A stretch of 64,000 nt of DNA from a virus: IMG/VR virus record IMGVR_UViG_3300032287_003808, positions 32,001 to 96,000 of that record. One strand, 5' to 3'. The translations under genes and the position numbers were made by a program. The first letter of the stretch is position 1; every line of letters begins with the position of its first letter. Positions 1-60,091 of this stretch are shown here, one piece after another. Under the pieces are notes generated by a model that was given only the letters and a program-made list of their open reading frames with translations, searched no databases and had not been told where the DNA came from.

Positions 1-952
1 CAATATCTAAAATATGAAAAGCAGAATGGTCTTTACCATCACCTCTAGCAACGTCTGCTATAATCATGTATGATCTAGTATAATCTGCTGGTTCCCATAT
101 CCATAAATTTTTGTCTGCTCCTCGTCTTTCAAGTGGATCTCTAATATACGTCTTCTCATAGAATTCTAAGAATTCAGGATAAAAAACAACATCACCAGAT
201 GTACTAAAATCACAATCACATTCTTGAGCTGCTAATCTAGGATCACCTAATAACTCATTTTGTCTATCTCTCCATGATTGGTCACGTTCAGGGTGTACCA
301 TCCATGGTAATCTAATAGGTAAAAAATCATTTTCTTGATTTTCTGCTCTAACCCATGTTTGATGAAACCAGTTACCGGTACCATATGGAGTAGATAATGC
401 AATACATCCACCACCTGTTGCTAAGGTTTGTTGTGCTGATGCCCATATTTCACCGATGTTCTCAATAAATGCTGCCTCATCAATTAGTAGTAATGATACT
501 GCTTCTGATCGTCCTGCATCACTTGATGCTGATGTTGCTTTTATCTGTGAACCGTTATTTAATCTGAGGGTTAGTTTGTTATTTTCTTCTGATGGTATTT
601 TAAGCCAAGATGGTAAATTTTCATACATGAATTTTACCTTTGTAACCATGTTCTTAGCTGTGTCTTGTTTAGTAGCTATACATAGTACGTTTTTATCTTG
701 GTGAAAAGTCATCAACCATAAAGCATACCCTGCTCCTAATGTTGAAATACCTAGCTGTCTAGATTTAAGTATTATCGAATATGGGTTATCTCTCCATAAA
801 TGAAGTACTTTTTCTTGGAATTGGTAAAGATTAAATTGAATTCGCCCACGTTGTGGGTGCTGAATAAAACAATATTTACGCATAAAGTGTGCTGGATCTT
901 GGGCGCACTTAATATATTCTTGGCGTATTATTTGTTTTATGTCTTGACTCAT
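1..952 (-). CDS. terL: Terminase large subunit, T4 gp17-like (runs off window start)
   Basis: Not in ORF track. Manual translation from ATG at 952: MSQDIKQIIRQEYIKCAQDPAHFMRKYCFIQHPQRG...LYQFQ (Q motif)...LKSRQLGIST (Walker A)...LLLIDEAAF (Walker B)...LSTPYG...ADVARGDGKDHSAF (RNase H-like nuclease). Confidence 0.95.
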   Translation of the reverse strand, partial: MSQDIKQIIRQEYIKCAQDPAHFMRKYCFIQHPQRGRIQFNLYQFQEKVLHLWRDNPYSIILKSRQLGISTLGAGYALWLMTFHQDKNVLCIATKQDTAKNMVTKVKFMYENLPSWLKIPSEENNKLTLRLNNGSQIKATSASSDAGRSEAVSLLLIDEAAFIENIGEIWASAQQTLATGGGCIALSTPYGTGNWFHQTWVRAENQENDFLPIRLPWMVHPERDQSWRDRQNELLGDPRLAAQECDCDFSTSGDVVFYPEFLEFYEKTYIRDPLERRGADKNLWIWEPADYTRSYMIIADVARGDGKDHSAFHILDI

Positions 953-955
953 ATA

Positions 956-1384
956 TTATTTAATTGAAAATAAGGTAATTAAAGCTATTAAAGATCCTAA
1001 AAATCCTCCACTAACCCACTTAATTCCTTTTTTCAAATTGTTGTTTTTATTAGTCAAATCAACAACATCAGTTTCAAGACCTTTAATTATAGTATCTTGA
1101 ACAGCTGTTAATTTTTCATATGAAGCAGTCTGTTTAAGATAATTTGTTTCTTTTTCAACATAAATAGTAATTACACTATCTTTAGCATCTATTTTTTCAT
1201 TTAATTGCCATATCATTTTATTTACAAGCTTTAATTCAGCAACAGCAGAATCACCTCGTGTAAGATCAATAGCAATAGCTTTTACTTTATCATGAGAAAA
1301 ACAGATTTTATCTGTAACGATCTGTGAAAAACTGTTCAAGCTCAGAGTTAGAAGCACTAGTAAGATCTTTAATTTTGTTTCCAT
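956..1384 (-). CDS. Exported coiled-coil protein with C-terminal TM helix; possible spanin component
   Basis: Signal-peptide-like N-terminus, coiled-coil middle, hydrophobic C-terminus; overlaps upstream gene by 77 nt. No lipobox at the expected position. Confidence 0.45.
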   Translation of the reverse strand: METKLKILLVLLTLSLNSFSQIVTDKICFSHDKVKAIAIDLTRGDSAVAELKLVNKMIWQLNEKIDAKDSVITIYVEKETNYLKQTASYEKLTAVQDTIIKGLETDVVDLTNKNNNLKKGIKWVSGGFLGSLIALITLFSIK

Positions 1385-1664
1385 AGTATGTGCGTGTTTG
1401 TTGTAACTCTTGTTCGGTTAATTTAATTTCCGTATTTATAGAATCTATAAAATTTTCTTGTTTTTTAAGAGTAACATTTAAAATATTTTGTTCATTTTTT
1501 AATGAATCAATATTATTTTTTAATTTTTTAATTTCTTGTTTTTGTATATCGTATTTTGAAGTATCAACGATAGAAGGACGAAAGAATAGAAAAATTAATA
1601 ATAACAAAATGATCGCACCCATAATTAGGTGCGATACATTAAGTTTTATAGTTTTAGTTCTCAT
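1308..1664 (-). CDS. N-terminal TM plus coiled-coil protein; i-spanin-like
   Basis: LIMGAIILLLLIFLFF TM helix followed by long heptad coil. Confidence 0.5.
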   Translation of the reverse strand: MRTKTIKLNVSHLIMGAIILLLLIFLFFRPSIVDTSKYDIQKQEIKKLKNNIDSLKNEQNILNVTLKKQENFIDSINTEIKLTEQELQQTRTYYGNKIKDLTSASNSELEQFFTDRYR

Positions 1665-1667
1665 GAA

Positions 1668-2600
1668 TTAGTATCCTAATTTATCAATTTTTTTCTGAAG
1701 TTCACCCTCTAACTTATTGATTCTTTTAAGCTCATCAAATAACTTTGCTTTTTCGCCTTCATCTTCAGTGTCTTTACGTTTTTGGGCTATTTTTAATCTT
1801 TCTTCTCCAGCTTTTTTAAGAGCTTTTAAAAGAGCATCTTTATCATTTGACATTTTTTCTAGCTTACCTCCACCACCAGAAGCAGCTTTATTAGCTTTAT
1901 CTTCACTGCTTTCTTTAGCTTTAGGTTCAGGTTTTTTAGGTTCTTCTTTAGCTTTAGGTTCTTCTTTTTTAGGTTCTTCTTTAGCTTTAGGTTCAGCTTT
2001 TGCAGGCTCTTTCTTAGTTACTCCTGAGTCTGGTAATGCTGTTTTTTCTTTAGGTTCGCTAGGTGTTGTTTCTTCTCCTTCAGGTTTTGTTCTAGGGCCT
2101 TTAGGTTTATTTGATTTATCTAGGAATGGGCTAAAGTCAATTAATTCATTACCGGATTTATCTGTAAACATTTGATCTTCAGGTCGGTTTAAGAATTTGC
2201 GAATTTCTTGGTTGTTGAAAGTAGCTGTATCTACACCATATTCTTTACTTAGAGCATTAGTATCAACTGTACCTTCATCTTCTAATTTTTTAAGTAATAA
2301 GTTAAGTGCTTTACTTTTAGAAACTCCTTCTTCTCTAAATTGATCTAGAGTTGATTTAAAACCCTCCATATCATTAATATCATAGATTGGAGTTTCATTT
2401 AATAAATCCTCTTCAACAAAATCTACTGGGTCATCAGCTGTTCCTAATTTTGGGTTTTTAGTAGTTTGTCTTGCTTTTTTTATTAGCTCCTGTTTTTTAG
2501 GATCATTTAGCATTCCTGGGTTTTGTACATCTATAGTTGATTCATTAAGGAGGGAAGCTATCTCTTCACGTATAATTTCAAGTAATCTAGATTTTTTCAT
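1668..2600 (-). CDS. Probable head-associated/cargo protein, charged low-complexity C-half
   Basis: N-terminal LLEIIREEIASLLNE motif shared with many neighbours; late-promoter motif at 2615-2624. Confidence 0.55.
   Translation of the reverse strand: MKKSRLLEIIREEIASLLNESTIDVQNPGMLNDPKKQELIKKARQTTKNPKLGTADDPVDFVEEDLLNETPIYDINDMEGFKSTLDQFREEGVSKSKALNLLLKKLEDEGTVDTNALSKEYGVDTATFNNQEIRKFLNRPEDQMFTDKSGNELIDFSPFLDKSNKPKGPRTKPEGEETTPSEPKEKTALPDSGVTKKEPAKAEPKAKEEPKKEEPKAKEEPKKPEPKAKESSEDKANKAASGGGGKLEKMSNDKDALLKALKKAGEERLKIAQKRKDTEDEGEKAKLFDELKRINKLEGELQKKIDKLGY
1911..1994 (-). repeat. Coding tandem repeat (EPKAKE/EPKK units)
   Basis: Repeated ttctttagctttaggttc on the + strand. Confidence 0.85.
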
Positions 2601-2613
2601 TATTTAAATTTAT

Positions 2614-3153
2614 TTATAAATATTGGAAACTTATTACCTGTTTAATTTGTTGTATTCTTTCTTCAGTAGTGCCTGAAATGTAATGTAATTTTTTAAATTT
2701 ATGAGGGTATTTATCTAGTAAGCGTTTAATGTTTTGATCAATTTCCATTCTATATTCAGGATCAATTGTTCTAACTCCATTATCTTCTATTTCTACACCT
2801 TCAGGTGAAATATAAAATATGTAATTATATTCCATAATTAAGTTAAGTGCTAAATCCTCAAAATGATCAGATACAAAATATGGGATTGATTTAGCTGCTC
2901 TAGTAAAAGCCATAACATCAACTACAGTACGATCTGTTACAATTTTTTCACACATTAATTCACTAGCACGTTCAGCTAAAAATACAATTTGACCCTTAAT
3001 AGTTGAATCTGTATTTAATGGGATTCCTAAATCTCTTAAGTATTTTGAACGTTCAGTTACAAAAGTATAATCTTTAAATTCAGGTAATTCTTTTAACGCA
3101 TTAACTAATGTAGTTTTACCTACAGACATTGTTCCACAAAATCCTATTTTCAT
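2614..3153 (-). CDS. P-loop nucleotide kinase/ATPase (NadR/AAA_28-like)
   Basis: MKIGFCGTMSVGKTTL Walker A; VTDRT; IEDNGVR. Confidence 0.85.
   Translation of the reverse strand: MKIGFCGTMSVGKTTLVNALKELPEFKDYTFVTERSKYLRDLGIPLNTDSTIKGQIVFLAERASELMCEKIVTDRTVVDVMAFTRAAKSIPYFVSDHFEDLALNLIMEYNYIFYISPEGVEIEDNGVRTIDPEYRMEIDQNIKRLLDKYPHKFKKLHYISGTTEERIQQIKQVISFQYL
2615..2624 (-). promoter_or_regulatory. Putative late promoter AATATTTAT(A) (representative copy)
   Basis: Related motif upstream of late genes at about 4159, 12803, 17463, 23937, 31519, 34131, 37333 and 40004. Confidence 0.7.
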
Positions 3154-3155
3154 AA

Positions 3156-3389
3156 TTAAAATCTAGCTTTAGCACCTCCTGATTTATACCATGGCAATCC
3201 ATCGCCACCTTTCTTAGCTGCTTTCCATTCAGATTCAGTATATTTCATTCCATTAATGTAATATTCTTTTTTCTTCATATCACCTTCAGGAATATAAGCA
3301 GGTCCTTCTAAATTATGCATTTTACCATCTAGGTAATAAACAACTGTTCCGTCAGCGGAAACTAATTTTTTGGTTTGAGTATTTGACAT
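3156..3389 (-). CDS. Hypothetical protein with H-x-x-x-GPA repeat unit
   Basis: YYLDGKMHNLEGPAYI...EYYINGM, a common phage repeat motif. Confidence 0.7.
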   Translation of the reverse strand: MSNTQTKKLVSADGTVVYYLDGKMHNLEGPAYIPEGDMKKKEYYINGMKYTESEWKAAKKGGDGLPWYKSGGAKARF

Positions 3390-3412
3390 AACTTTTTATT
3401 TTTTGGTTTACC

Positions 3413-3444
3413 TAAATATATGAAAAATATATTAAAAAGCCAAA
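3413..3444 (-). promoter_or_regulatory. Bacteroidota housekeeping-type promoter (TTTG-N20-TATATTTA)
   Basis: Matches the -33 TTTG / -7 TAnnTTTG consensus with correct spacing; similar copies near 6406-6437 and 7665-7695. Confidence 0.65.
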
Positions 3445-3446
3445 AT

Positions 3447-3683
3447 TTATTGGATCTCATTAACATAAGAAATAAACTCAAGAATAATATTTTTATGTTG
3501 AGAAGAATTTTTAGCTGTTTCTTTTAGCATATTATGTAAATCATGTTCTCCTTCTTCTAAAGTAGATGTGATAGGTTTTAAAACAGACTCTACAACTTCG
3601 TATTCTCCATCATCACCATAATCACAAACATCATTTAAATAAAGATTAATATATTCTGTTAATTTATCTTTTGATAGTTTCAT
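3447..3683 (-). CDS. Hypothetical protein
   Basis: ORF packed in operon. Confidence 0.7.
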   Translation of the reverse strand: MKLSKDKLTEYINLYLNDVCDYGDDGEYEVVESVLKPITSTLEEGEHDLHNMLKETAKNSSQHKNIILEFISYVNEIQ

Positions 3684-4146
3684 AAATGTATGTTTTAATC
3701 TTTTTAAATACTTCTTGTAATTTACTTAATTGGCTATTTAACCATTTCAATCGTTGACCAAATCTTTTACCTCCCATTGGAGTCTCAATATTAGACTCCG
3801 GGATATATTTTAATAGCGGTTTAATATACTCATTTCCTGCTAAAAATATAAATTTGTTTTTATTAGGATCAATACCACGTTGTTTCATTTCCCTATAAAC
3901 TTCTTCACCCCATTTTTCTTTTTCCTCTTTATTAAAATCTTTTAGAGTTAAATCATATGGTTTTAATTTTTGGTCTAAATTAACTAAATGATGTTTAGCC
4001 GATAAAATATACATCTTGTCAGGCTTAAGTGTTTTACCATACTCTAATGTTTTTTGAAACATAGGAGATGCTGAATATAACTCTTGAGCTGGTGCTTCGT
4101 ACGGAGTTTTAGATTTGGTACAACTTAATAGTACTACTGTTGCCAT
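3664..4146 (-). CDS. DUF6884-like protein
   Basis: VVLLSCTKSK...AQELYSASPMF...ILSAKHHLV...PYDLTL...LAGNEY motif pattern. Confidence 0.7.
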   Translation of the reverse strand: MATVVLLSCTKSKTPYEAPAQELYSASPMFQKTLEYGKTLKPDKMYILSAKHHLVNLDQKLKPYDLTLKDFNKEEKEKWGEEVYREMKQRGIDPNKNKFIFLAGNEYIKPLLKYIPESNIETPMGGKRFGQRLKWLNSQLSKLQEVFKKIKTYIYETIKR

Positions 4147-5203: not shown

Positions 5204-6385
5204 CTATTTACTTAAAAATTTAATTAAAACTTTATCTAACATTAACAATTTAAACGCAGATGAATTTCCATTATATATTGATTTTACAATATTATATTTT
5301 AAATCCACTGCAAATAATTCTTCATTCATTAAGAATGATAACCTGTTAATAATTGGTTTTTCAATTTTATTATCTTTACTATAATATAAACTATAGTTAA
5401 TAAGTCGAGTTGATAAAATAGATGCTAAATCGGCTCTATAGTCTTTATCTTTCCCTATAACTCCTTTTAAAGTATTAAGTACATACTCTTCACTTTCATG
5501 AGTTAGTATAGTTTCAGGTGAAATAATCTTATCTAACTTATTATTAATGAACATTGTGAATAATGTTGTAAATTCAGGTCCAACTGATCCTTCTCCAATC
5601 ATTTGAATTAGATATAGATTATCATCAAATGAAGAAATAGATGAAATTGAATTAAAGAATGTTGTGATGCTTCTTGAATTAGTGTCTGTTGAAACTAATT
5701 CGGGATGTTTTAATAAGAAGTTAATACATCTGTTATCAATTTGAGCATTTTCAGCCCACTCACTCCAACATTTAATATCAAATTTTAAATTAACCGAAAT
5801 AAATCGTGTTTTTTGGGCGTTATCAATACTGTTAACTAAATATTCTCCATTATCCGGATTGGCGGTTAATATGATGTGCCAATCTTTAGGTAGAGACCAA
5901 CTGATATACTGTTGTCTATCTATTAGTTCCATAACAGCTTGTATGAACCTGATGTCTGCTCTATTCCAGTCATCTAATAATAAGATTCCACCATTTGATT
6001 TTCCACTAATCCACTCAGGTGGACAATAACTCATTCGATTTTGGCCTGTGAATTTATAACCTAATTTGGTATATTCTTCTACAGCATGTTCATCAATCCA
6101 AAGACAATCATTATCTGTTTTGCAAACTTCAAATTGTCTAATTGGAAACCCTACTAAATCTCCTAATTCTTCGATTTGGGCTAAATTCAACTTTACAAAG
6201 TTTAAATTTAACTCATTAGCTAATTGAATGATTGTTGATGTTTTTCCAATCCCAGAATCACCAATAACCTCAGTTGCTACAGGCAATTTACCATTTGCTT
6301 GTAAGTAACGATTGTTTGAAATGATGTGGGTTAGGAATTCTTTTGCCTCACTGATGTTCAGTGAAATTTGTTTACTGTTTGACAT
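5204..6385 (-). CDS. MoxR-like AAA+ ATPase
   Basis: GDSGIGKT Walker A, LLLDDWNRA Walker B, LTANP sensor 1, IDNAQKTRF Arg finger. Confidence 0.9.
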   Translation of the reverse strand: MSNSKQISLNISEAKEFLTHIISNNRYLQANGKLPVATEVIGDSGIGKTSTIIQLANELNLNFVKLNLAQIEELGDLVGFPIRQFEVCKTDNDCLWIDEHAVEEYTKLGYKFTGQNRMSYCPPEWISGKSNGGILLLDDWNRADIRFIQAVMELIDRQQYISWSLPKDWHIILTANPDNGEYLVNSIDNAQKTRFISVNLKFDIKCWSEWAENAQIDNRCINFLLKHPELVSTDTNSRSITTFFNSISSISSFDDNLYLIQMIGEGSVGPEFTTLFTMFINNKLDKIISPETILTHESEEYVLNTLKGVIGKDKDYRADLASILSTRLINYSLYYSKDNKIEKPIINRLSFLMNEELFAVDLKYNIVKSIYNGNSSAFKLLMLDKVLIKFLSK

Positions 6386-41394: not shown

Positions 41395-41607
41395 TCAGAG
41401 TCTGTATCCCAACATATAATTGCCAATGTAACTATCTAAACTTGTTCCGCGGCAAATGTCATACCCTGTTTCCGCCTTGTCGTTATCACGTTTCGCATAC
41501 TCTTCTAACGCGGTGTACACTTCAGGTATCAATATTTTCTTCCACCCTGACAACTGTTCTGCTTGGATTCTCATTCCGTCCACTACTGTAAAAACTTTTC
41601 TTTCCAT
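41395..41607 (-). CDS. Small hypothetical protein
   Basis: Own promoter and leader. Confidence 0.8.
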   Translation of the reverse strand: MERKVFTVVDGMRIQAEQLSGWKKILIPEVYTALEEYAKRDNDKAETGYDICRGTSLDSYIGNYMLGYRL

Positions 41608-41647
41608 AACCGTTTCTTTAAATATACTTTAATATACGTAACTGTCT

Positions 41648-41782
41648 TTAGTCATTAGTGTCCTTAGCTAACTCTTCAAACTGTAATATCAACAACGGAA
41701 CCAATCCGATTAAACCCCAATCGTTCCCGAACGCCAATAATATCGTTCCAAATACTCCTACTGTAATACCAAATGTTCTCAT
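41648..41782 (-). CDS. Small membrane protein (44 aa)
   Basis: Not in track: MRTFGITVGVFGTILLAFGNDWGLIGLVPLLILQFEELAKDTND; leader identical over 23 nt to that of 41395..41607. Confidence 0.7.
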   Translation of the reverse strand: MRTFGITVGVFGTILLAFGNDWGLIGLVPLLILQFEELAKDTND

Positions 41783-41829
41783 AACCGTTTCTTTAAATAT
41801 ACTGAAATATACGTAATGTCATTTGCGAC

Positions 41830-42144
41830 TTATACTCCCGTCTTTGCTCTCAATATGTCATCTAACATGTCGATTAGGTCTCCTAGGTAGCCATTACGAG
41901 CTAAGTCATCTAAATCGTATGTCTGGTCTTCATAATACCCACCACAACAATCACATCCGAAATCAATATACTCACCTAACACTACTGTTCCGTTTTCGAA
42001 ATCGAAACCTCGCAACTCCAATTTACCCACTTTGTCAAGTCGATCACACCATAACTCCATTTCGAAATCGATGTCTTTAATTTTTCCGAATTGTGTAAAC
42101 GTGTTACACGCGTCCATAAACTCTCTTGCTGTCATAACCTTCAA
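41830..42144 (-). CDS. Acidic Cys-containing hypothetical protein
   Basis: GCDCCGG; ATG at 42135 has the GGTTATG leader and is the likelier start. Confidence 0.75.
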   Translation of the reverse strand: MKVMTAREFMDACNTFTQFGKIKDIDFEMELWCDRLDKVGKLELRGFDFENGTVVLGEYIDFGCDCCGGYYEDQTYDLDDLARNGYLGDLIDMLDDILRAKTGV

Positions 42145-42218
42145 TTTAGAATATACAATAAAGCAAATTTAACACCTACTACTCCCACTGCCAATAATAA
42201 ACATACTAAAACTTCCAT
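42141..42218 (-). CDS. 25-aa hydrophobic peptide
   Basis: Not in track: MEVLVCLLLAVGVVGVKFALLYILN; own promoter and leader. Confidence 0.55.
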   Translation of the reverse strand: MEVLVCLLLAVGVVGVKFALLYILN

Positions 42219-42455: not shown

Positions 42456-42482
42456 CACAAGGTGTATATTTAAGATAACCGG

Positions 42483-42905
42483 TTATGAAGCGGTGTCGTT
42501 AATTACTACTTTTGGTCTTCCAAGTGGCATCACACCACCATTAGCGGCTTTCTTGGCTTCCATTTCCGCCAATCGTTTCTGGCGCGCACTTTCCCCATTC
42601 ACCGGGCGACCTTTTTTCAACTCACCATTTGCTCGTTTCGTCTCTAACTCCACTAACCGCATTTGGCGGGCACTGTCTGCCTTAATTGGTCGACCCTTTT
42701 TCAACTCACCATTCGCTCGTTTCTCAGCCAACTCGGCAATTCGTATTTGGCGGGCACTATCTGCCTTAACTGGTCGGCCTCGTTTCCCTGTTGTCTCTGG
42801 CTTGGCCATGTTTGCCAACATCTCTTCCAATACTACGCTCTTCATTGTATGAGCTCCTTTAATTCCTGCTGCAATCGCTGTTGCTACTAATTCATTTCTT
42901 TTCAT
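42483..42905 (-). CDS. AT-hook (GRP) repeat DNA-binding protein with Rho_N/HeH-like N-terminus
   Basis: Four GRP motifs in 28-aa repeats; ELVATAIAAGIKGAHTMKSVVL. Confidence 0.7.
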   Translation of the reverse strand: MKRNELVATAIAAGIKGAHTMKSVVLEEMLANMAKPETTGKRGRPVKADSARQIRIAELAEKRANGELKKGRPIKADSARQMRLVELETKRANGELKKGRPVNGESARQKRLAEMEAKKAANGGVMPLGRPKVVINDTAS

Positions 42906-58941: not shown

Positions 58942-59098
58942 ATTTTATACTATACAACCACAATTACTGCATTTAACTATTGTTAGACCATTCATGTGGC
59001 GTACTGCTACATAAGTCTTTTTGTGTTCACATTTAACTGTTTCCATAACTTTTTATTTTAATATACGAAATTTCTTTTGCTTAAACAATTCCTTTAAT

Positions 59099-59136
59099 AA
59101 AAAAACCTGCCGTGCGTTCGTATCCACACGGCAGGT
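59099..59136 (-). terminator. Intrinsic terminator
   Basis: ACCTGCCGTGTG-GATACGAA-CGCACGGCAGGT-TTTTTT. Confidence 0.85.
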
Positions 59137-59160
59137 AAAAGAAACGGTTATGAAGCGTTT

Positions 59161-59221
59161 TGTAGTCAGGACAGGATTCGAACCTGTGGGTGCCTACCAG
59201 CGTATAATTGCTTACCTGACT
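59161..59221 (-). ncRNA. tRNA-like RNA lacking a normal anticodon arm
   Basis: Acceptor AGTCAGG/CCTGACT then ACA; perfect T arm ACAGG-TTCGAAT-CCTGT; only 27 nt between the acceptor 5' strand and the T arm. Confidence 0.75.
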
Positions 59222-59287
59222 TACCCCGAATCTTATAGTAGCGGCACCTTTACGCGGCCGTCGGTTCTACTTGCGACGATTTGTTGC

Positions 59288-60091
59288 TTAGGCTGCTATA
59301 TATTTAGCAGCCACTGCAAACAATTCTTTATTAACTTTCAAGTCTTGATTGAAGTTCTTGATTCTACGAGCCTTTCTACTTCTATTTCCCGCTACGTAGT
59401 TAAAGTCTCCATCCAAAATCTTCTCTTGAACCACATTAAATATTGACCACAAGTCACTTCCTTCATCTTCCTTACGAACTGGTTTCAATAGTTCCTTAGC
59501 GTCAACTGTAATCCGTTTCATTTCATCTTCATTGAATCGTGTTGCTAATGCTTTCAAAGCAAACTCAACTGCTTGTTTCTCATCCAGTTGTATACTCTTC
59601 ATTTTATTCATTGACTCAACAGTCAATGGTAGACGTTCAACCATTTCCCGGATCTTTACTTGTAGTTCTTCAAATGTATACCCTAAGTGTCTCATCTTGA
59701 CATCTTCAAACTGTTCAGTTGAAATTACTAGTCCGTTCTCACATACCATTCTAAACAAACCAGCTGTAAATGTAAATGCATTTTTACCATCATGGCTATT
59801 TGTTAATAGAATCTGTGGAAAAACATCATCACCATCTGTACCATTAATTACTACTTCTGGGTTTCTAAATACAATCAGATGTTTCTGGAATCCTACACCT
59901 TTACGTGCTTTAACTTCCTTGGCATCTACTACTTGCCATCCTAATTGTTTCATGTCATCCACAATTACTGATGTTGGGATGTGAGTGTAATGTTGTGATA
60001 CATTACTAGCCGCTGTGGCTGTGAATACGCTCGGAGCGATTCTTTTGATTTGCTCATTTGTCAAAAATGAGTCTTTGCTTAGATCTAACAT
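59288..60091 (-). CDS. DUF932/DUF945-family protein
   Basis: APSVF...Y.HIPT...FQKHLIVFR...ILLTNSHDG...GLFRMVCENGLV...RH...LWSIFNVVQE. Confidence 0.9.
   Translation of the reverse strand: MLDLSKDSFLTNEQIKRIAPSVFTATAASNVSQHYTHIPTSVIVDDMKQLGWQVVDAKEVKARKGVGFQKHLIVFRNPEVVINGTDGDDVFPQILLTNSHDGKNAFTFTAGLFRMVCENGLVISTEQFEDVKMRHLGYTFEELQVKIREMVERLPLTVESMNKMKSIQLDEKQAVEFALKALATRFNEDEMKRITVDAKELLKPVRKEDEGSDLWSIFNVVQEKILDGDFNYVAGNRSRKARRIKNFNQDLKVNKELFAVAAKYIAA

What the first reader, a model, noticed from the sequence alone, without database searches (positions are those of the whole stretch)
59099..59221. Minimised tRNA-like RNA whose 3' trailer is antisense to the shared leader of the array genes
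Seen (minus strand): acceptor stem AGTCAGG/CCTGACT, U8-A9, a D-like arm AGC-AATTATAC-GCT, a stub GGT-AGGC-ACC where the anticodon arm should be, a perfect T arm (ACAGG-TTCGAAT-CCTGT), then ACA. It is 59 nt to the discriminator and cannot decode normally. Directly downstream is CGCTTCATAACCGTTTCTTTT and then a strong terminator. CATAACCGTTTCTTT is the exact complement of the AAAGAAACGGTTATG leader of the genes starting at 41607 (15 nt) and 41782 (16 nt). Its CATAAC(C) core pairs with the (G)GTTATG start context of dozens of array genes. Established: RNase P and RNase Z recognise mainly the acceptor stem and T arm. Inference: the tRNA mimic is a processing tag that releases a ~60-nt terminator-ended sRNA, which blocks translation initiation of many early genes at once. 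It could instead be a decoy for tRNA-targeting defences.
Basis: partly seen in the sequence, partly recalled or inferred. Interest (0 to 1): 0.85.

Follow-up and report, generated by a model that had tools for sequence, protein, structure and literature searches.

The report
tRNA-like tag plus anti-start-codon hairpin RNA
Behind an early gene of an uncultured freshwater phage lies a small conserved RNA unit, a shrunken tRNA look-alike followed by a hairpin whose unchanging loop is the mirror image of the start-codon context of the phage's early genes, so it may switch those genes off together.

Summary
On the minus strand there is a 59-nt tRNA-shaped element (59221-59163), a trailer, and a strong terminator. 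The trailer holds the exact complement of two gene leaders.

The element is the shortest of 129 distinct members of a phage-only family of anticodon-less tRNA look-alikes. An earlier follow-up of this scan reported what is probably this family on other DNA.

The new result concerns the trailer. It is a hairpin (59160-59142) with a 9-nt loop, CUUCAUAAC, followed by a U-rich spacer.
- Its stem covaries in relatives.
- The loop was identical in 23 of 23 tRNA-like-linked relatives found by searches that left it free.
- The loop is complementary to GUUAUGAAG. GTTATG precedes 41 of 119 ORFs on the early side of the genome and 5 of 76 on the late side.
- GTTATG is enriched in hairpin-bearing loci (1.78x) and not in other loci of the family (0.85x).

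The 15-nt match to two leaders was not found in relatives. The plus-strand ORF is not conserved.

Best reading (about 0.4): the tRNA-like part is a processing tag that releases an antisense RNA of about 60 nt aimed at early start codons. No RNA data exist. The module matches nothing in Rfam, and I found no paper describing it.

The parts
59288..60091 (-). Upstream early gene, DUF932 family (267 aa). The RNA unit lies in its 3' untranslated region and is probably co-transcribed with it.
   Evidence: Pfam PF06067, E = 1.9e-32. No early-promoter-like TTCGTATATT motif lies between the stop codon and the tRNA-like element. Of 21 orthologous loci, 7 have a tRNA-like element directly downstream.
59238..59270 (-). 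G+C-rich hairpin 5' of the tRNA-like element (GUAG..CGGC..GCCG..CUAC). It is possibly the 3' end structure left on the DUF932 mRNA after RNase P cleavage.
   Evidence: Predicted in the fold. Nearly the same sequence stands in L062/L103, L068/L109/L114, L106 and L218. One compensatory pair (C-G to U-A) was seen by eye in L062; this was not tested formally.
59163..59221 (-). Minimised tRNA-like element, 59 nt: a 7-bp acceptor stem, U8, a 3-bp D-like arm without GG, a 3-bp stub in place of the anticodon arm, a canonical T arm (UUCGAAU loop) and discriminator A.
   Evidence: Sequence and fold. No ARAGORN or Rfam tRNA call. It is the shortest of 129 distinct family elements. Acceptor and T stems show changes on both sides in 8 of 12 pairs in relatives. 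The same 59-nt form stands in another metagenome contig, L218.
59142..59160 (-). Trailer hairpin: stem AAACG/CGUUU and a 9-nt loop CUUCAUAAC (59155-59147). The loop contains a U-turn-type UUCA and the anti-start sequence CAUAAC.
   Evidence: It is the minimum-energy structure of the trailer taken alone. All 5 stem pairs change on both sides across 21 distinct relatives; covariation score 0.598 against 0.189 in shuffles, 0 of 500 shuffles as high. The loop is identical in 5 of 5, 10 of 10 and 8 of 8 tRNA-like-linked hits of searches that left it free.
59138..59152 (+). The 15-mer identical to the leader plus ATG of the genes at 41607 and 41782. On the minus-strand RNA it is their exact complement.
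   Evidence: No matching leader was found in relatives' records.
59137..59141 (-). U-rich spacer (CUUUU) between the hairpin and the terminator. A U-rich tract follows the hairpin in most stem groups.
   Evidence: Alignment A1 and the contexts listed.
59098..59136 (-). Intrinsic terminator: 12-bp stem, 8-nt loop, U7.
   Evidence: In relatives the stem changes by compensatory substitutions or is replaced by another hairpin, while the trailer core stays the same.
42478..42494 (-). Second copy of the hairpin (ACCG-CUUCAUAAC-CGGU), with no tRNA-like element before it. The stop codon of ORF 42483-42905 is the UAA inside the loop.
   Evidence: It is homologous to the tRNA-like-linked hairpins of L110/L112, L111 (second site), L109 (second site) and L143, including the GAGCCCG..CGGGC hairpin that follows.
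41605..41619 (-). Leader plus ATG of the 70-aa gene 41395-41607. It is fully complementary to the trailer over 15 nt and is the best predicted target.
   Evidence: RNAduplex gives -22.8 kcal/mol, the lowest of 195 start regions.
41780..41794 (-). Leader plus ATG of the 44-aa hydrophobic peptide gene 41648-41782. It is complementary to the trailer over 16 nt.

Best explanation
The intergenic stretch 59098-59270 is one conserved non-coding RNA unit, probably transcribed with the early DUF932 gene.

Proposed mechanism:
- The tRNA-like part keeps only what the tRNA-end-processing enzymes read, the acceptor stem stacked on the T arm. It serves as a processing tag. RNase P would cut at its 5' end. 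RNase Z would cut after the discriminator A at 59163; the phage's own tRNA genes also carry no encoded CCA.
- This releases an RNA of about 60 nt that starts near 59162 and ends at the terminator's U-tract near 59099.
- The released RNA consists of a short hairpin, a U-rich spacer and the terminator hairpin.
- The hairpin's 9-nt loop, CUUCAUAAC, is complementary to GUUAUGAAG. This is the start-codon context of the phage's short, A-rich early and middle leaders. The U-rich tract faces the A-rich part of those leaders.
- Loop-first pairing over the start codon would block initiation on many early mRNAs at once. The host lineage probably does not use Shine-Dalgarno pairing. The result would be delayed negative feedback that helps the change from early to late expression.
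- In this genome two leaders (41607 and 41782) have full 15-16-nt complementarity and would be the strongest targets.

Shown: the structure, its conservation and covariation, the invariance of the loop, the complementarity, and the enrichment of the target motif.

Inferred: transcription of the unit, cleavage by RNase P and RNase Z, pairing in trans, and repression.
For: Structure is real:
- Acceptor and T stems are 98.5% paired, with changes on both sides in 8 of 12 pairs (shuffle mean 2.0; 0 of 500 shuffles as high).
- All 5 trailer-hairpin pairs change on both sides. 87.6% of cells are paired against 66.0% in shuffles. Slid controls reach a covariation score of at most 0.168, against 0.598 observed.
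- The rows of that alignment were chosen without regard to stem pairing.

The loop is under selection:
- With the loop left free, all tRNA-like-linked hits carry CTTCATAAC: 5 of 5, 10 of 10 in metagenome contigs and 8 of 8.
- The other 3 and 1 hits of those last two scans are unrelated G+C-rich sequences.
- Stems, tRNA-like bodies and terminators differ around the same loop.
- No variant letter is listed for 59147-59155 in four lake metagenome runs.

Target motif:
- GTTATG occurs 93 times on the coding strand and 17 on the other strand in this genome. Three relatives show the same bias: 44 against 15, 42 against 7 and 22 against 6.
- It precedes 41 of 119 ORF starts on the early side and 5 of 76 on the late side.
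- ATG preceded by GTT is enriched 1.78x in 30 hairpin-bearing loci, 0.85x in 57 family loci without the hairpin and 0.98x in 52 chance-hit loci.

Pairing potential:
- 48 of 195 start regions pair with the 28-nt trailer at -10 kcal/mol or better. Shuffled trailers give 12.8 +/- 5.6, and 0 of 200 shuffles reach 48.
- At random coding-strand sites 14.5% reach that energy, against 24.6% at starts.

Architecture of an sRNA:
- The trailer alone folds as a seed hairpin, a spacer and a terminator; z = -5.5.
- The three shortest tRNA-like bodies (59, 62 and 63 nt) all belong to this hairpin class. This suggests the body needs no insert here.
- The gene after the terminator has its own promoter-like motif, so read-through is not required.
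Against: - No RNA evidence of any kind exists. No RNA run holds the stretch.
- Neither the loop nor the GTTATG context varies, so there is no co-variation between regulator and target. The association may reflect shared ancestry of the hairpin-bearing phages.
- Conserved complementarity is only 6-9 nt plus a U/A tract. The stem's 3' arm differs between groups, and no matching leaders were found.
- The extended 15-nt match exists only in this genome. It could come from an inverted duplication: a palindromic relative of the motif lies at 42478-42494, next to the four CGGTTATG genes.
- The second hairpin copy has no tRNA-like tag, so the tag is not always needed.
- The loop also reads as an anticodon loop, UUCAUAA with anticodon CAU. 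Its CAUAAC equals positions 34-39 of bacterial initiator tRNA as I recall them. The complementarity to start codons could therefore follow from tRNA mimicry and not from antisense function.
- The window's element lacks the D-loop GG, so the tRNA elbow that RNase P contacts is not canonical.
Confidence: 0.4

Rival explanations
1. tRNA mimicry without antisense action. The hairpin is an anticodon-arm mimic (CAU anticodon, initiator-like CAUAAC). Together with the tRNA top half it acts as a decoy or ligand for a tRNA-binding protein. Candidates are a host anticodon or acceptor nuclease used in defence, or an enzyme that reads the CAU anticodon.
For: - The core of the loop, UUCAUAA, has the form of a 7-nt anticodon loop with U33-like U, CAU, A37 and A38.
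- In L116 the hairpin (AACUG-C-UUCAUAA-C-CAGUU) closely resembles the anticodon arm of that phage's own tRNA-Met (ACUGA-CUCAUAA-UCAGU).
- Canonical tRNA-Met genes occupy the same position after the tRNA-like element in L076/L077 and L116.
- Phage tRNAs are proposed or shown to counter tRNA-cleaving defences (abstracts of PMC10264068 and PMC11464382).
Against: - In this genome the hairpin stem (AAACG/CGUUU) does not resemble the phage's tRNA-Met arm (CAACA/UGUUG). The resemblance therefore holds in 1 of 2 genomes that could be compared.
- The closing position is a C-C or U-C mismatch, which makes a 9-nt loop.
- The three G-C pairs typical of initiator tRNA (recalled) are absent.
- Mimicry does not explain why GTTATG is enriched at early gene starts only in hairpin-bearing loci.
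Confidence: 0.2
2. A protein-binding hairpin. The invariant loop on a variable stem is the recognition site of a phage or host protein. Possible roles are a processing nuclease site, an RNA chaperone site or an antitermination factor acting on the terminator just downstream. Under this reading the complementarity to start codons is incidental.
For: An invariant loop with a covarying stem is the pattern usual for protein-binding RNA hairpins. The hairpin always stands shortly before a terminator-like hairpin.
Against: - A 9-nt loop holds the exact complement of a given hexamer by chance in about 1 case in 1000 (my estimate).
- Here that hexamer is the most over-represented start context of the same genomes.
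- The downstream genes carry their own promoter-like motifs, so read-through is not needed.
- No candidate protein was found, and I did not search for one.
Confidence: 0.15
3. The tRNA-like element is the functional product, as in the rest of its family, for example a charged but non-decoding tRNA-Leu shell or another top-half ligand. The trailer hairpin only helps 3' end formation or stability.
For: - The family is large, phage-restricted and very uniform in its acceptor stem and T arm.
- Most members carry a tRNA-Leu-type D arm and discriminator A, the latter in 112 of 129.
- Only about a fifth of distinct trailers are of the hairpin class, roughly 25 of 125 by my reading.
Against: - The window's element has lost the Leu-type D arm and its GG.
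- In the hairpin class the tRNA-like body varies far more than the hairpin loop does.
- A second hairpin copy persists with no tRNA-like element before it.
- A mere stability element would not need an invariant 9-nt loop.
Confidence: 0.1
4. Decay products without function: a dying tRNA gene followed by the fossil anticodon arm of a lost tRNA-Met gene.
For: The element is the smallest of its family and cannot decode. tRNA-Met genes follow tRNA-like elements in some relatives.
Against: - Compensatory changes keep all three helices.
- The loop is invariant in 23 of 23 unforced cases.
- The same 59-nt form occurs in a second metagenome contig.
Confidence: 0.04
5. The motif is an ordinary leader of a plus-strand gene that starts at ATG 59150.
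For: A 98-codon plus-strand ORF begins at that ATG, behind a leader identical to two real leaders.
Against: - In 21 relatives the corresponding ORF is 4-98 codons long and lies in different frames.
- It has no Pfam family.
- It runs antisense through the tRNA-like element and the DUF932 gene.
- All long ORFs of the window lie on the minus strand.
Confidence: 0.01

Closest known systems
tRNA-miRNA-encoded RNAs (TMERs) of murine gammaherpesvirus 68
   Same: A virus-encoded tRNA-like element that does not decode, followed by hairpins. tRNase Z cutting at the tRNA-like element frees the downstream regulatory RNAs (passage read in PMC4838037).
   Different: TMERs come from a eukaryotic virus, are Pol III transcripts, and their hairpins are Dicer substrates that give microRNAs. 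Here the virus is a bacterial one and there is a single hairpin with an invariant anti-start-codon loop and an intrinsic terminator. Processing has not been shown here.
3' external transcribed spacer of the E. coli glyW-cysT-leuZ tRNA operon (3'ETS-leuZ)
   Same: A tRNA trailer released by tRNA processing acts in trans by base pairing. I saw only search listings and abstracts that name it as a sponge RNA; the details are recalled.
   Different: It is chromosomal, follows a real tRNA, depends on Hfq, and sponges sRNAs; it does not cover mRNA start codons. Here the tRNA is a non-decoding shell and the proposed targets are phage mRNAs.
Phage family of anticodon-less tRNA look-alikes built on a tRNA-Leu shell
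   Same: The family as I defined it here has acceptor stem AGUCAGG/CCUGACU, T arm ACAGG-UUCGAAU-CCUGU and discriminator A. The 28-mer stands in 58 viral stretches, and there are 129 distinct members in my loci.
   Different: The window's member has lost the Leu-type D arm and carries no insert.
Antisense RNAs that start pairing from a U-turn (YUNR) loop, such as plasmid copy-number and type I antitoxin RNAs (recalled, no call)
   Same: A short hairpin presents the complementary bases in a loop that contains a YUNR motif, here UUCA. The two best predicted targets include a 44-aa hydrophobic peptide gene, as in type I toxin-antitoxin pairs.
   Different: Those RNAs are usually encoded opposite or next to one target. 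This one would act in trans on a shared start context of dozens of genes.
Phage T4 RegA, a protein that represses many early mRNAs by binding over their start codons (recalled, no call)
   Same: Collective shut-off of early-gene translation through a sequence shared around AUG.
   Different: RegA is a protein. Here the proposed effector is an RNA, and no RegA relative was looked for.
Canonical phage tRNAs that resist host anticodon nucleases
   Same: Phage-encoded, tRNA-shaped, and often found in tRNA clusters (abstracts of PMC10264068 and PMC11464382).
   Different: Those tRNAs decode. This element has no anticodon arm and is missed by ARAGORN and Rfam.

Membership tests
Canonical tRNA (Rfam RF00005) | Cloverleaf with an anticodon arm and a 7-nt anticodon loop | tested here: not met
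   No ARAGORN call. No Rfam tRNA match at gathering score or at E up to 10. A 3-bp stub of 10 nt stands where the anticodon arm should be.
Canonical tRNA (Rfam RF00005) | 7-bp acceptor stem, 5-bp T stem, T loop UUCGAAU, U8 and a discriminator base | tested here: met
   Sequence. Both stems are kept by compensatory changes in relatives.
Canonical tRNA (Rfam RF00005) | D loop with G18 G19 that forms the elbow with the T loop | tested here: not met
   The D-like loop is AAUUAUAC and holds no GG. Most family members do have GGCGGAAUUGGUAGACGC.
Phage anticodon-less tRNA-like family (defined here and by scan note e1-2951741) | Shared acceptor stem AGUCAGG/CCUGACU, T arm ACAGG-UUCGAAU-CCUGU and discriminator A, with a variable middle | tested here: met
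   The exact 28-mer is shared with 58 viral stretches. The window's element is one of 129 distinct members of 59-170 nt. A second, 123-nt member lies in the same genome and scores 40.2 bits as tRNA with a 65-nt insert.
Phage anticodon-less tRNA-like family | Restricted to phage or viral sequence, and not a copy of a host tRNA | tested here: met
   The 25-mer occurs in only 14 contigs of 185,579 species genomes. All 14 are metagenome-assembled bins with scattered taxonomic labels. It has no match in 50,697 GenBank phage records.
tRNA-linked trailer RNA (3'ETS or TMER type) | A structured RNA directly 3' of a tRNA-shaped element, ending at its own terminator | tested here: met
   The same order of parts is found in the relatives listed.
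tRNA-linked trailer RNA (3'ETS or TMER type) | Release by RNase P and RNase Z (or RNase E), and accumulation as a discrete RNA | not testable with these tools
   No RNA run is listed for the stretch.
Trans-acting antisense sRNA | Complementarity to targets beyond chance, placed in an accessible and conserved seed | tested here: met
   The loop is invariant and unpaired. 48 start regions pair at -10 kcal/mol or better, against 12.8 +/- 5.6 for shuffled trailers.
Trans-acting antisense sRNA | Co-variation of seed and target, or a demonstrated regulatory effect | tested here: inconclusive
   Neither seed nor target motif varies. The extended 15-nt match is absent from relatives. The association of hairpin and GTTATG bias is not corrected for relatedness.
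tmRNA and Y-RNA-like (YrlA) tRNA mimics | A match to the family models. For tmRNA, a tag reading frame. For YrlA, a closed acceptor end with the open ends at the anticodon side. | tested here: not met
   ARAGORN finds no tmRNA. Rfam gives no match to either family. The ends are open at the acceptor stem.
Intrinsic terminator | G+C-rich stem followed by a U-tract | tested here: met
   12 pairs, 8 of them G-C, followed by T7.

The most novel reading that the evidence does not exclude
Uncultured freshwater Bacteroidota-type phages carry a dedicated 'anti-AUG' riboregulator. It is an anticodon-arm-like hairpin, possibly derived from a tRNA-Met gene, and is cut out of an early transcript with the help of a degenerate tRNA shell. 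Early and middle genes are marked with a GUU tag in front of AUG, so this single RNA can recognise and silence the whole class together. In a host lineage that does not use Shine-Dalgarno pairing, it would do the job that proteins such as T4 RegA or RegB do elsewhere. In this genome it would also act as a near-perfect antisense partner for small hydrophobic peptide genes, in the manner of a type I antitoxin.
Probability: 0.3. Interest if true: 0.85.

Novelty: new variant of a known kind. Interest (0 to 1): 0.72.

Why it matters
If the model holds, a phage would time a whole class of genes with one small RNA that reads a tag placed around the start codon. It would also show that phages use worn-down tRNA genes as processing handles for regulatory RNAs. 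That arrangement is known from a mouse herpesvirus and is copied in synthetic biology, but I found no paper describing it in phages.

It bears on an open question: how translation initiation is selected and regulated in Bacteroidota and their phages, which largely lack Shine-Dalgarno pairing.

Even without the mechanism, the unit is a well-supported new RNA motif: three covarying helices and an invariant 9-nt loop. It matches nothing in Rfam release 15. The 3' half of the tRNA-like part is very abundant in lake metagenomes, with summed depth of 224-3779 against roughly 5-65 in the flanks.

Tried and rejected
Expression: the look-up of sequencing runs listed 20 DNA runs and no RNA holder. Nothing can therefore be said about transcription or RNA ends. 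The read-laying run used DNA contigs only and shows neither strand nor ends.

Annotated phages: the 131-nt unit has no match in the GenBank phage records. A 3-kb flank matched only four Flavobacterium phage records, at about 70% identity over 6% of the query. No cultured carrier was found.

Literature:
- Keyword searches and a search for the sequence words themselves returned no paper on this family or hairpin. The 19 hits were primers or siRNAs.
- One review hit for 'anticodon-less' concerned cleaved host tRNA and not phage genes.

Extended complementarity in relatives: patterns made from the relatives' own trailers found only the trailers themselves or unconvincing near-matches. Most of those records are fragments; their completeness estimates run from 5 to 100%.

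Idea that the loop pairs in cis with the middle of the tRNA-like element: I saw no consistent complement by eye, and dropped it.

Idea that the hairpin copies the phage's own tRNA-Met anticodon arm: only two genomes could be compared. One matches and one does not, so it remains a lead.

Limits of my own counts:
- My script range covered loci up to L186, so L187-L197 were left out there. Searches included them.
- In one search the nearest-match rule picked wrong 5' ends for L103, L105, L172 and L189. I corrected three of these by pattern and left L189 out of alignment A2.
- The 5' ends in alignment A2 were found partly by their pairing, so its percentage paired is biased upward. The compensatory changes are not.

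I built no covariance model. Pattern scans and alignments answered the questions.
Full report
WHAT IS THERE

The window is bases 32001-96000 of a 131,434-base virus record whose completeness is estimated at 82%. All long ORFs lie on the minus strand. The only similarity to annotated phages is a weak match to Flavobacterium phages. The genome has 31.8% G+C.

The finding lies between the stop codon of a DUF932 gene (59288-60091, Pfam E = 1.9e-32) and the next small gene.
- acceptor stem AGTCAGG/CCTGACT, followed by U8 and A9;
- a 3-bp D-like arm;
- a 3-bp stub where the anticodon arm should be;
- a canonical T arm and discriminator A at 59163, giving 59 nt in all;
- the trailer, and then a 12-bp terminator with T7.

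RNAfold gives the same arms as its minimum-energy structure. ARAGORN and Rfam do not call the element a tRNA, even at E up to 10.

The 15-mer AAAGAAACGGTTATG stands exactly at 41605-41619 and 41780-41794 on the minus strand and at 59138-59152 on the plus strand. With up to 2 mismatches there are 5 matches, against 0.21 expected by chance.

THE tRNA-SHAPED PART BELONGS TO A LARGE PHAGE FAMILY

The 28 bases that make up the T arm, the 3' acceptor strand and ACA occur exactly in 58 stretches of the viral contig collection. A near-identical copy lies in the same genome just outside the window, between a tRNA-Leu(UAA) and a tRNA-Met gene. That copy is 123 nt long. Rfam scores it as a tRNA at 40.2 bits, with 65 bases inserted in place of the anticodon arm.

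- Their lengths run from 59 to 170 nt, and the window's is the shortest.
- 112 of 129 have discriminator A.
- Most have a D arm of the tRNA-Leu type.
- The middle differs in almost every one.

Some phages hold 5-8 members within about 10 kb.

The shared 25-mer occurs in only 14 contigs of 185,579 species genomes. All 14 are metagenome bins with scattered labels, and none is an isolate. It has no match in 50,697 GenBank phage records. It is therefore not a copy of a host tRNA.

In four lake metagenome runs the 28 bases at 59160-59187 reach summed depths of 224-3779, against roughly 5-65 in the flanks. Between 17 and 147 contigs were laid per run.

An earlier follow-up of this scan (e1-2951741) described a large, apparently undescribed phage family with a leucine-tRNA shell. 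I reached the same reading independently.

Selection acts on RNA structure. In an alignment of 27 members, 8 of the 12 acceptor and T-stem pairs show changes on both sides (shuffle mean 2.0; 0 of 500 shuffles as high), and 98.5% of cells are paired. The 5' ends in that alignment were located partly by their pairing, so the percentage is biased upward. The compensatory changes are not.

THE TRAILER IS A CONSERVED HAIRPIN WITH AN INVARIANT LOOP

Of 21 loci that encode a DUF932 relative, 7 have a family tRNA-like element directly downstream (L062, L067, L068, L075-L078). Three of these (L062, L067, L068) carry the same trailer core, AACGCTTCATAACCGTTT. Their acceptor stems, T stems and terminators differ from the window's.

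A search for 16 bases of the trailer found 17 viral stretches. Eleven are tRNA-like-linked and six are unrelated coding sequences.

A looser pattern, a T loop followed 15-32 nt later by TTCATAAC, returned 94 stretches. My script saw 80 distinct contexts in the loci up to L186.
- Of the 28 contexts with a family-type acceptor, 25 can pair at least 4 of the 5 bases on either side of a 9-nt loop.
- Of the other 52 contexts, 14 can do so.

The stems are different sequences: AAACG/CGUUU, AACUG/CAGUU, CUGCU/AGUAG, AAGUG/CACUU, CGCUG/CAGUU and UACCG/CGGUU.

I then aligned 21 distinct 31-nt fragments plus the window's. The fragments were chosen without regard to pairing. All 5 stem pairs show changes on both sides. 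87.6% of cells are paired, against 66.0% in shuffles. The covariation score is 0.598, against 0.189 in shuffles (0 of 500 as high), and at most 0.168 when the partner columns are slid.

That search had fixed the loop, so I repeated it with the loop left free and only the flanks given. Every tRNA-like-linked hit had the loop CTTCATAAC:
- 5 of 5 in viral contigs;
- 10 of 10 in metagenome contigs, where the other 3 hits are unrelated G+C-rich sequences;
- 8 of 8 for a second stem group, where 1 hit is unrelated.

No variant letter is listed for 59147-59155 in the four lake runs.

Folded alone, the trailer gives the hairpin, a 5-nt U-rich spacer and the terminator (-24.9 kcal/mol, z = -5.5).

One metagenome contig (L218) carries the same 59-nt element with a slightly different terminator. 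The minimal form is therefore not an assembly accident.

A second copy of the hairpin lies at 42478-42494 in the window, with no tRNA-like element before it. It is homologous to tRNA-like-linked copies in relatives.

WHAT THE LOOP COULD PAIR WITH

The early side of the genome is an array of small genes. Each is preceded by a promoter-like motif and a short A-rich leader ending in (A/G)GTTATG.
- GTTATG stands 93 times on the coding strand and 17 on the other strand. Three relatives show the same bias.
- It precedes 41 of 119 ORF starts on the early side and 5 of 76 on the late side.

The loop CUUCAUAAC is the exact complement of GUUAUGAAG.

The 28-nt trailer pairs with 48 of 195 start regions at -10 kcal/mol or better. 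Shuffled trailers give 12.8 +/- 5.6, and 0 of 200 shuffles reach 48. At random sites on the coding strand 14.5% reach that energy, against 24.6% at starts.

ATG preceded by GTT is enriched 1.78-fold in 30 hairpin-bearing loci, 0.85-fold in 57 family loci without the hairpin, and 0.98-fold in 52 loci that were chance hits. This is not corrected for relatedness.

The 15-16-nt complementarity to two leaders is not conserved. Patterns taken from the trailers found only the trailers themselves, or unconvincing near-matches, in the records searched. These include records rated 63%, 77% and 100% complete, and several smaller fragments.

The two leaders in this genome are near-identical neighbours and count as one event. 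They lie close to the palindromic second hairpin copy, so an origin by inverted duplication cannot be excluded.

One of the two genes encodes a 44-aa hydrophobic peptide. A third gene with a 10-nt match encodes a 25-aa hydrophobic peptide. This recalls type I toxin-antitoxin pairs, but it is only a hint.

ALTERNATIVES

The plus-strand ORF from 59150 is not conserved: 4-98 codons in varying frames across 21 relatives, with no Pfam family.

The loop can also be read as an anticodon loop, UUCAUAA with CAU. Three observations keep tRNA mimicry, a decoy or ligand, as the main rival:
- its CAUAAC equals positions 34-39 of bacterial initiator tRNA as I recall them;
- in L116 the hairpin closely resembles that phage's own tRNA-Met anticodon arm, although in this genome it does not;
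- canonical tRNA-Met genes follow the tRNA-like element in some relatives.

A protein-binding hairpin is also possible. However, the genes after the terminator have their own promoter-like motifs, and the exact complementarity to the genome's most over-represented start context would then be a coincidence of roughly 1 in 1000 by my estimate.

COMPARISON WITH WHAT IS KNOWN

The closest known design is that of the murine gammaherpesvirus TMERs: a tRNA-like element followed by hairpins that are released by tRNase Z (passage read in PMC4838037).

In bacteria the closest is the trailer of the leuZ tRNA operon, which acts in trans as an RNA sponge (seen only in listings; details recalled).

Phage tRNAs as counter-measures to tRNA-cleaving defences are documented (abstracts of PMC10264068 and PMC11464382), but those tRNAs decode.

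Loop-initiated antisense pairing through U-turn loops, and the T4 RegA protein that represses early mRNAs at their start codons, are functional parallels that I recall.

I found no paper on this family or on the hairpin.

VERDICT

The unit is a real, conserved and apparently undescribed RNA module. The evidence fits a tRNA-like processing tag followed by a small RNA whose invariant loop is aimed at the early genes' start-codon context.

Transcription, cleavage and regulation are all inferred. I put the full mechanism at about 0.4 and the reality of the structured RNA module at about 0.9.

Noticed in passing
window 59238-59270 (minus): A G+C-rich hairpin between the DUF932 stop codon and the tRNA-like element. 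It is nearly identical in L062/L103, L068/L109/L114, L106 and L218. One compensatory pair (C-G to U-A) was seen in L062. Its function is unknown.
   Followed up: partly
window 42478-42494 (minus), with the hairpin GAGCCCGAGTAATCGGGC just downstream: A second copy of the CUUCAUAAC hairpin, without a tRNA-like element. The stop codon of ORF 42483-42905 is the UAA of the loop. In relatives (L110, L111 at 5883-6070, L143) the same unit follows a tRNA-like element.
   Followed up: partly
window 41648-41782 and 42141-42218 (minus): Two very small hydrophobic peptide genes (44 and 25 aa) are among the four genes whose leaders end in CGGTTATG. These are the leaders most complementary to the trailer. 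The arrangement resembles a type I toxin-antitoxin pair.
   Followed up: no
window 41350-64000 (minus): Two promoter-like classes precede the small genes: TTCGTATATTAAA... and TAAAGTAAATTAAAAA.... Both are followed by short A-rich leaders ending in GTTATG. Genes on the late side mostly have ATTTATAATAAA-type upstream sequences instead.
   Followed up: partly
L038, L047, L008, L028 (viral contigs; positions listed): Arrays of 6-8 family tRNA-like genes within about 10 kb. All share the same acceptor stem and T arm, and each has a different insert, like a constant scaffold carrying variable cargo.
   Followed up: no
L002 about 1628-1660 (minus); also upstream of elements in L008, L009, L135 and L137: A conserved short hairpin just 5' of several tRNA-like elements. 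In L002 it is GAGGA-CTTCTCA-TCCTC, with a 7-nt loop that looks like an anticodon loop. Another recurrent leader hairpin, CTCGGAAAGACGAG, precedes other members.
   Followed up: no
window 59160-59187 in four lake metagenome runs: The 28 bases of the T arm and 3' acceptor strand reach summed contig depths of 224-3779, against roughly 5-65 in the flanks. Between 17 and 147 contigs were laid per run. The element is one of the most repeated short sequences in these samples.
   Followed up: partly
L116 2563-2637 and 9832-9862: In this phage the anticodon arm of its own tRNA-Met (ACUGA-CUCAUAA-UCAGU) is almost the same as its trailer hairpin (AACUG-C-UUCAUAA-C-CAGUU). This hints that the hairpin derives from, or mimics, a tRNA-Met anticodon arm.
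   Followed up: partly
L004 3941-4013: ARAGORN calls a tRNA with anticodon CTA, which would be an amber suppressor, in one of the phage contigs that carry a family tRNA-like element.
   Followed up: no
genome positions 98108-98182 and 98833-98917 (outside the window): The phage encodes only two canonical tRNAs, Met(CAU) and Leu(UAA), next to its longer tRNA-like genes.
   Followed up: partly
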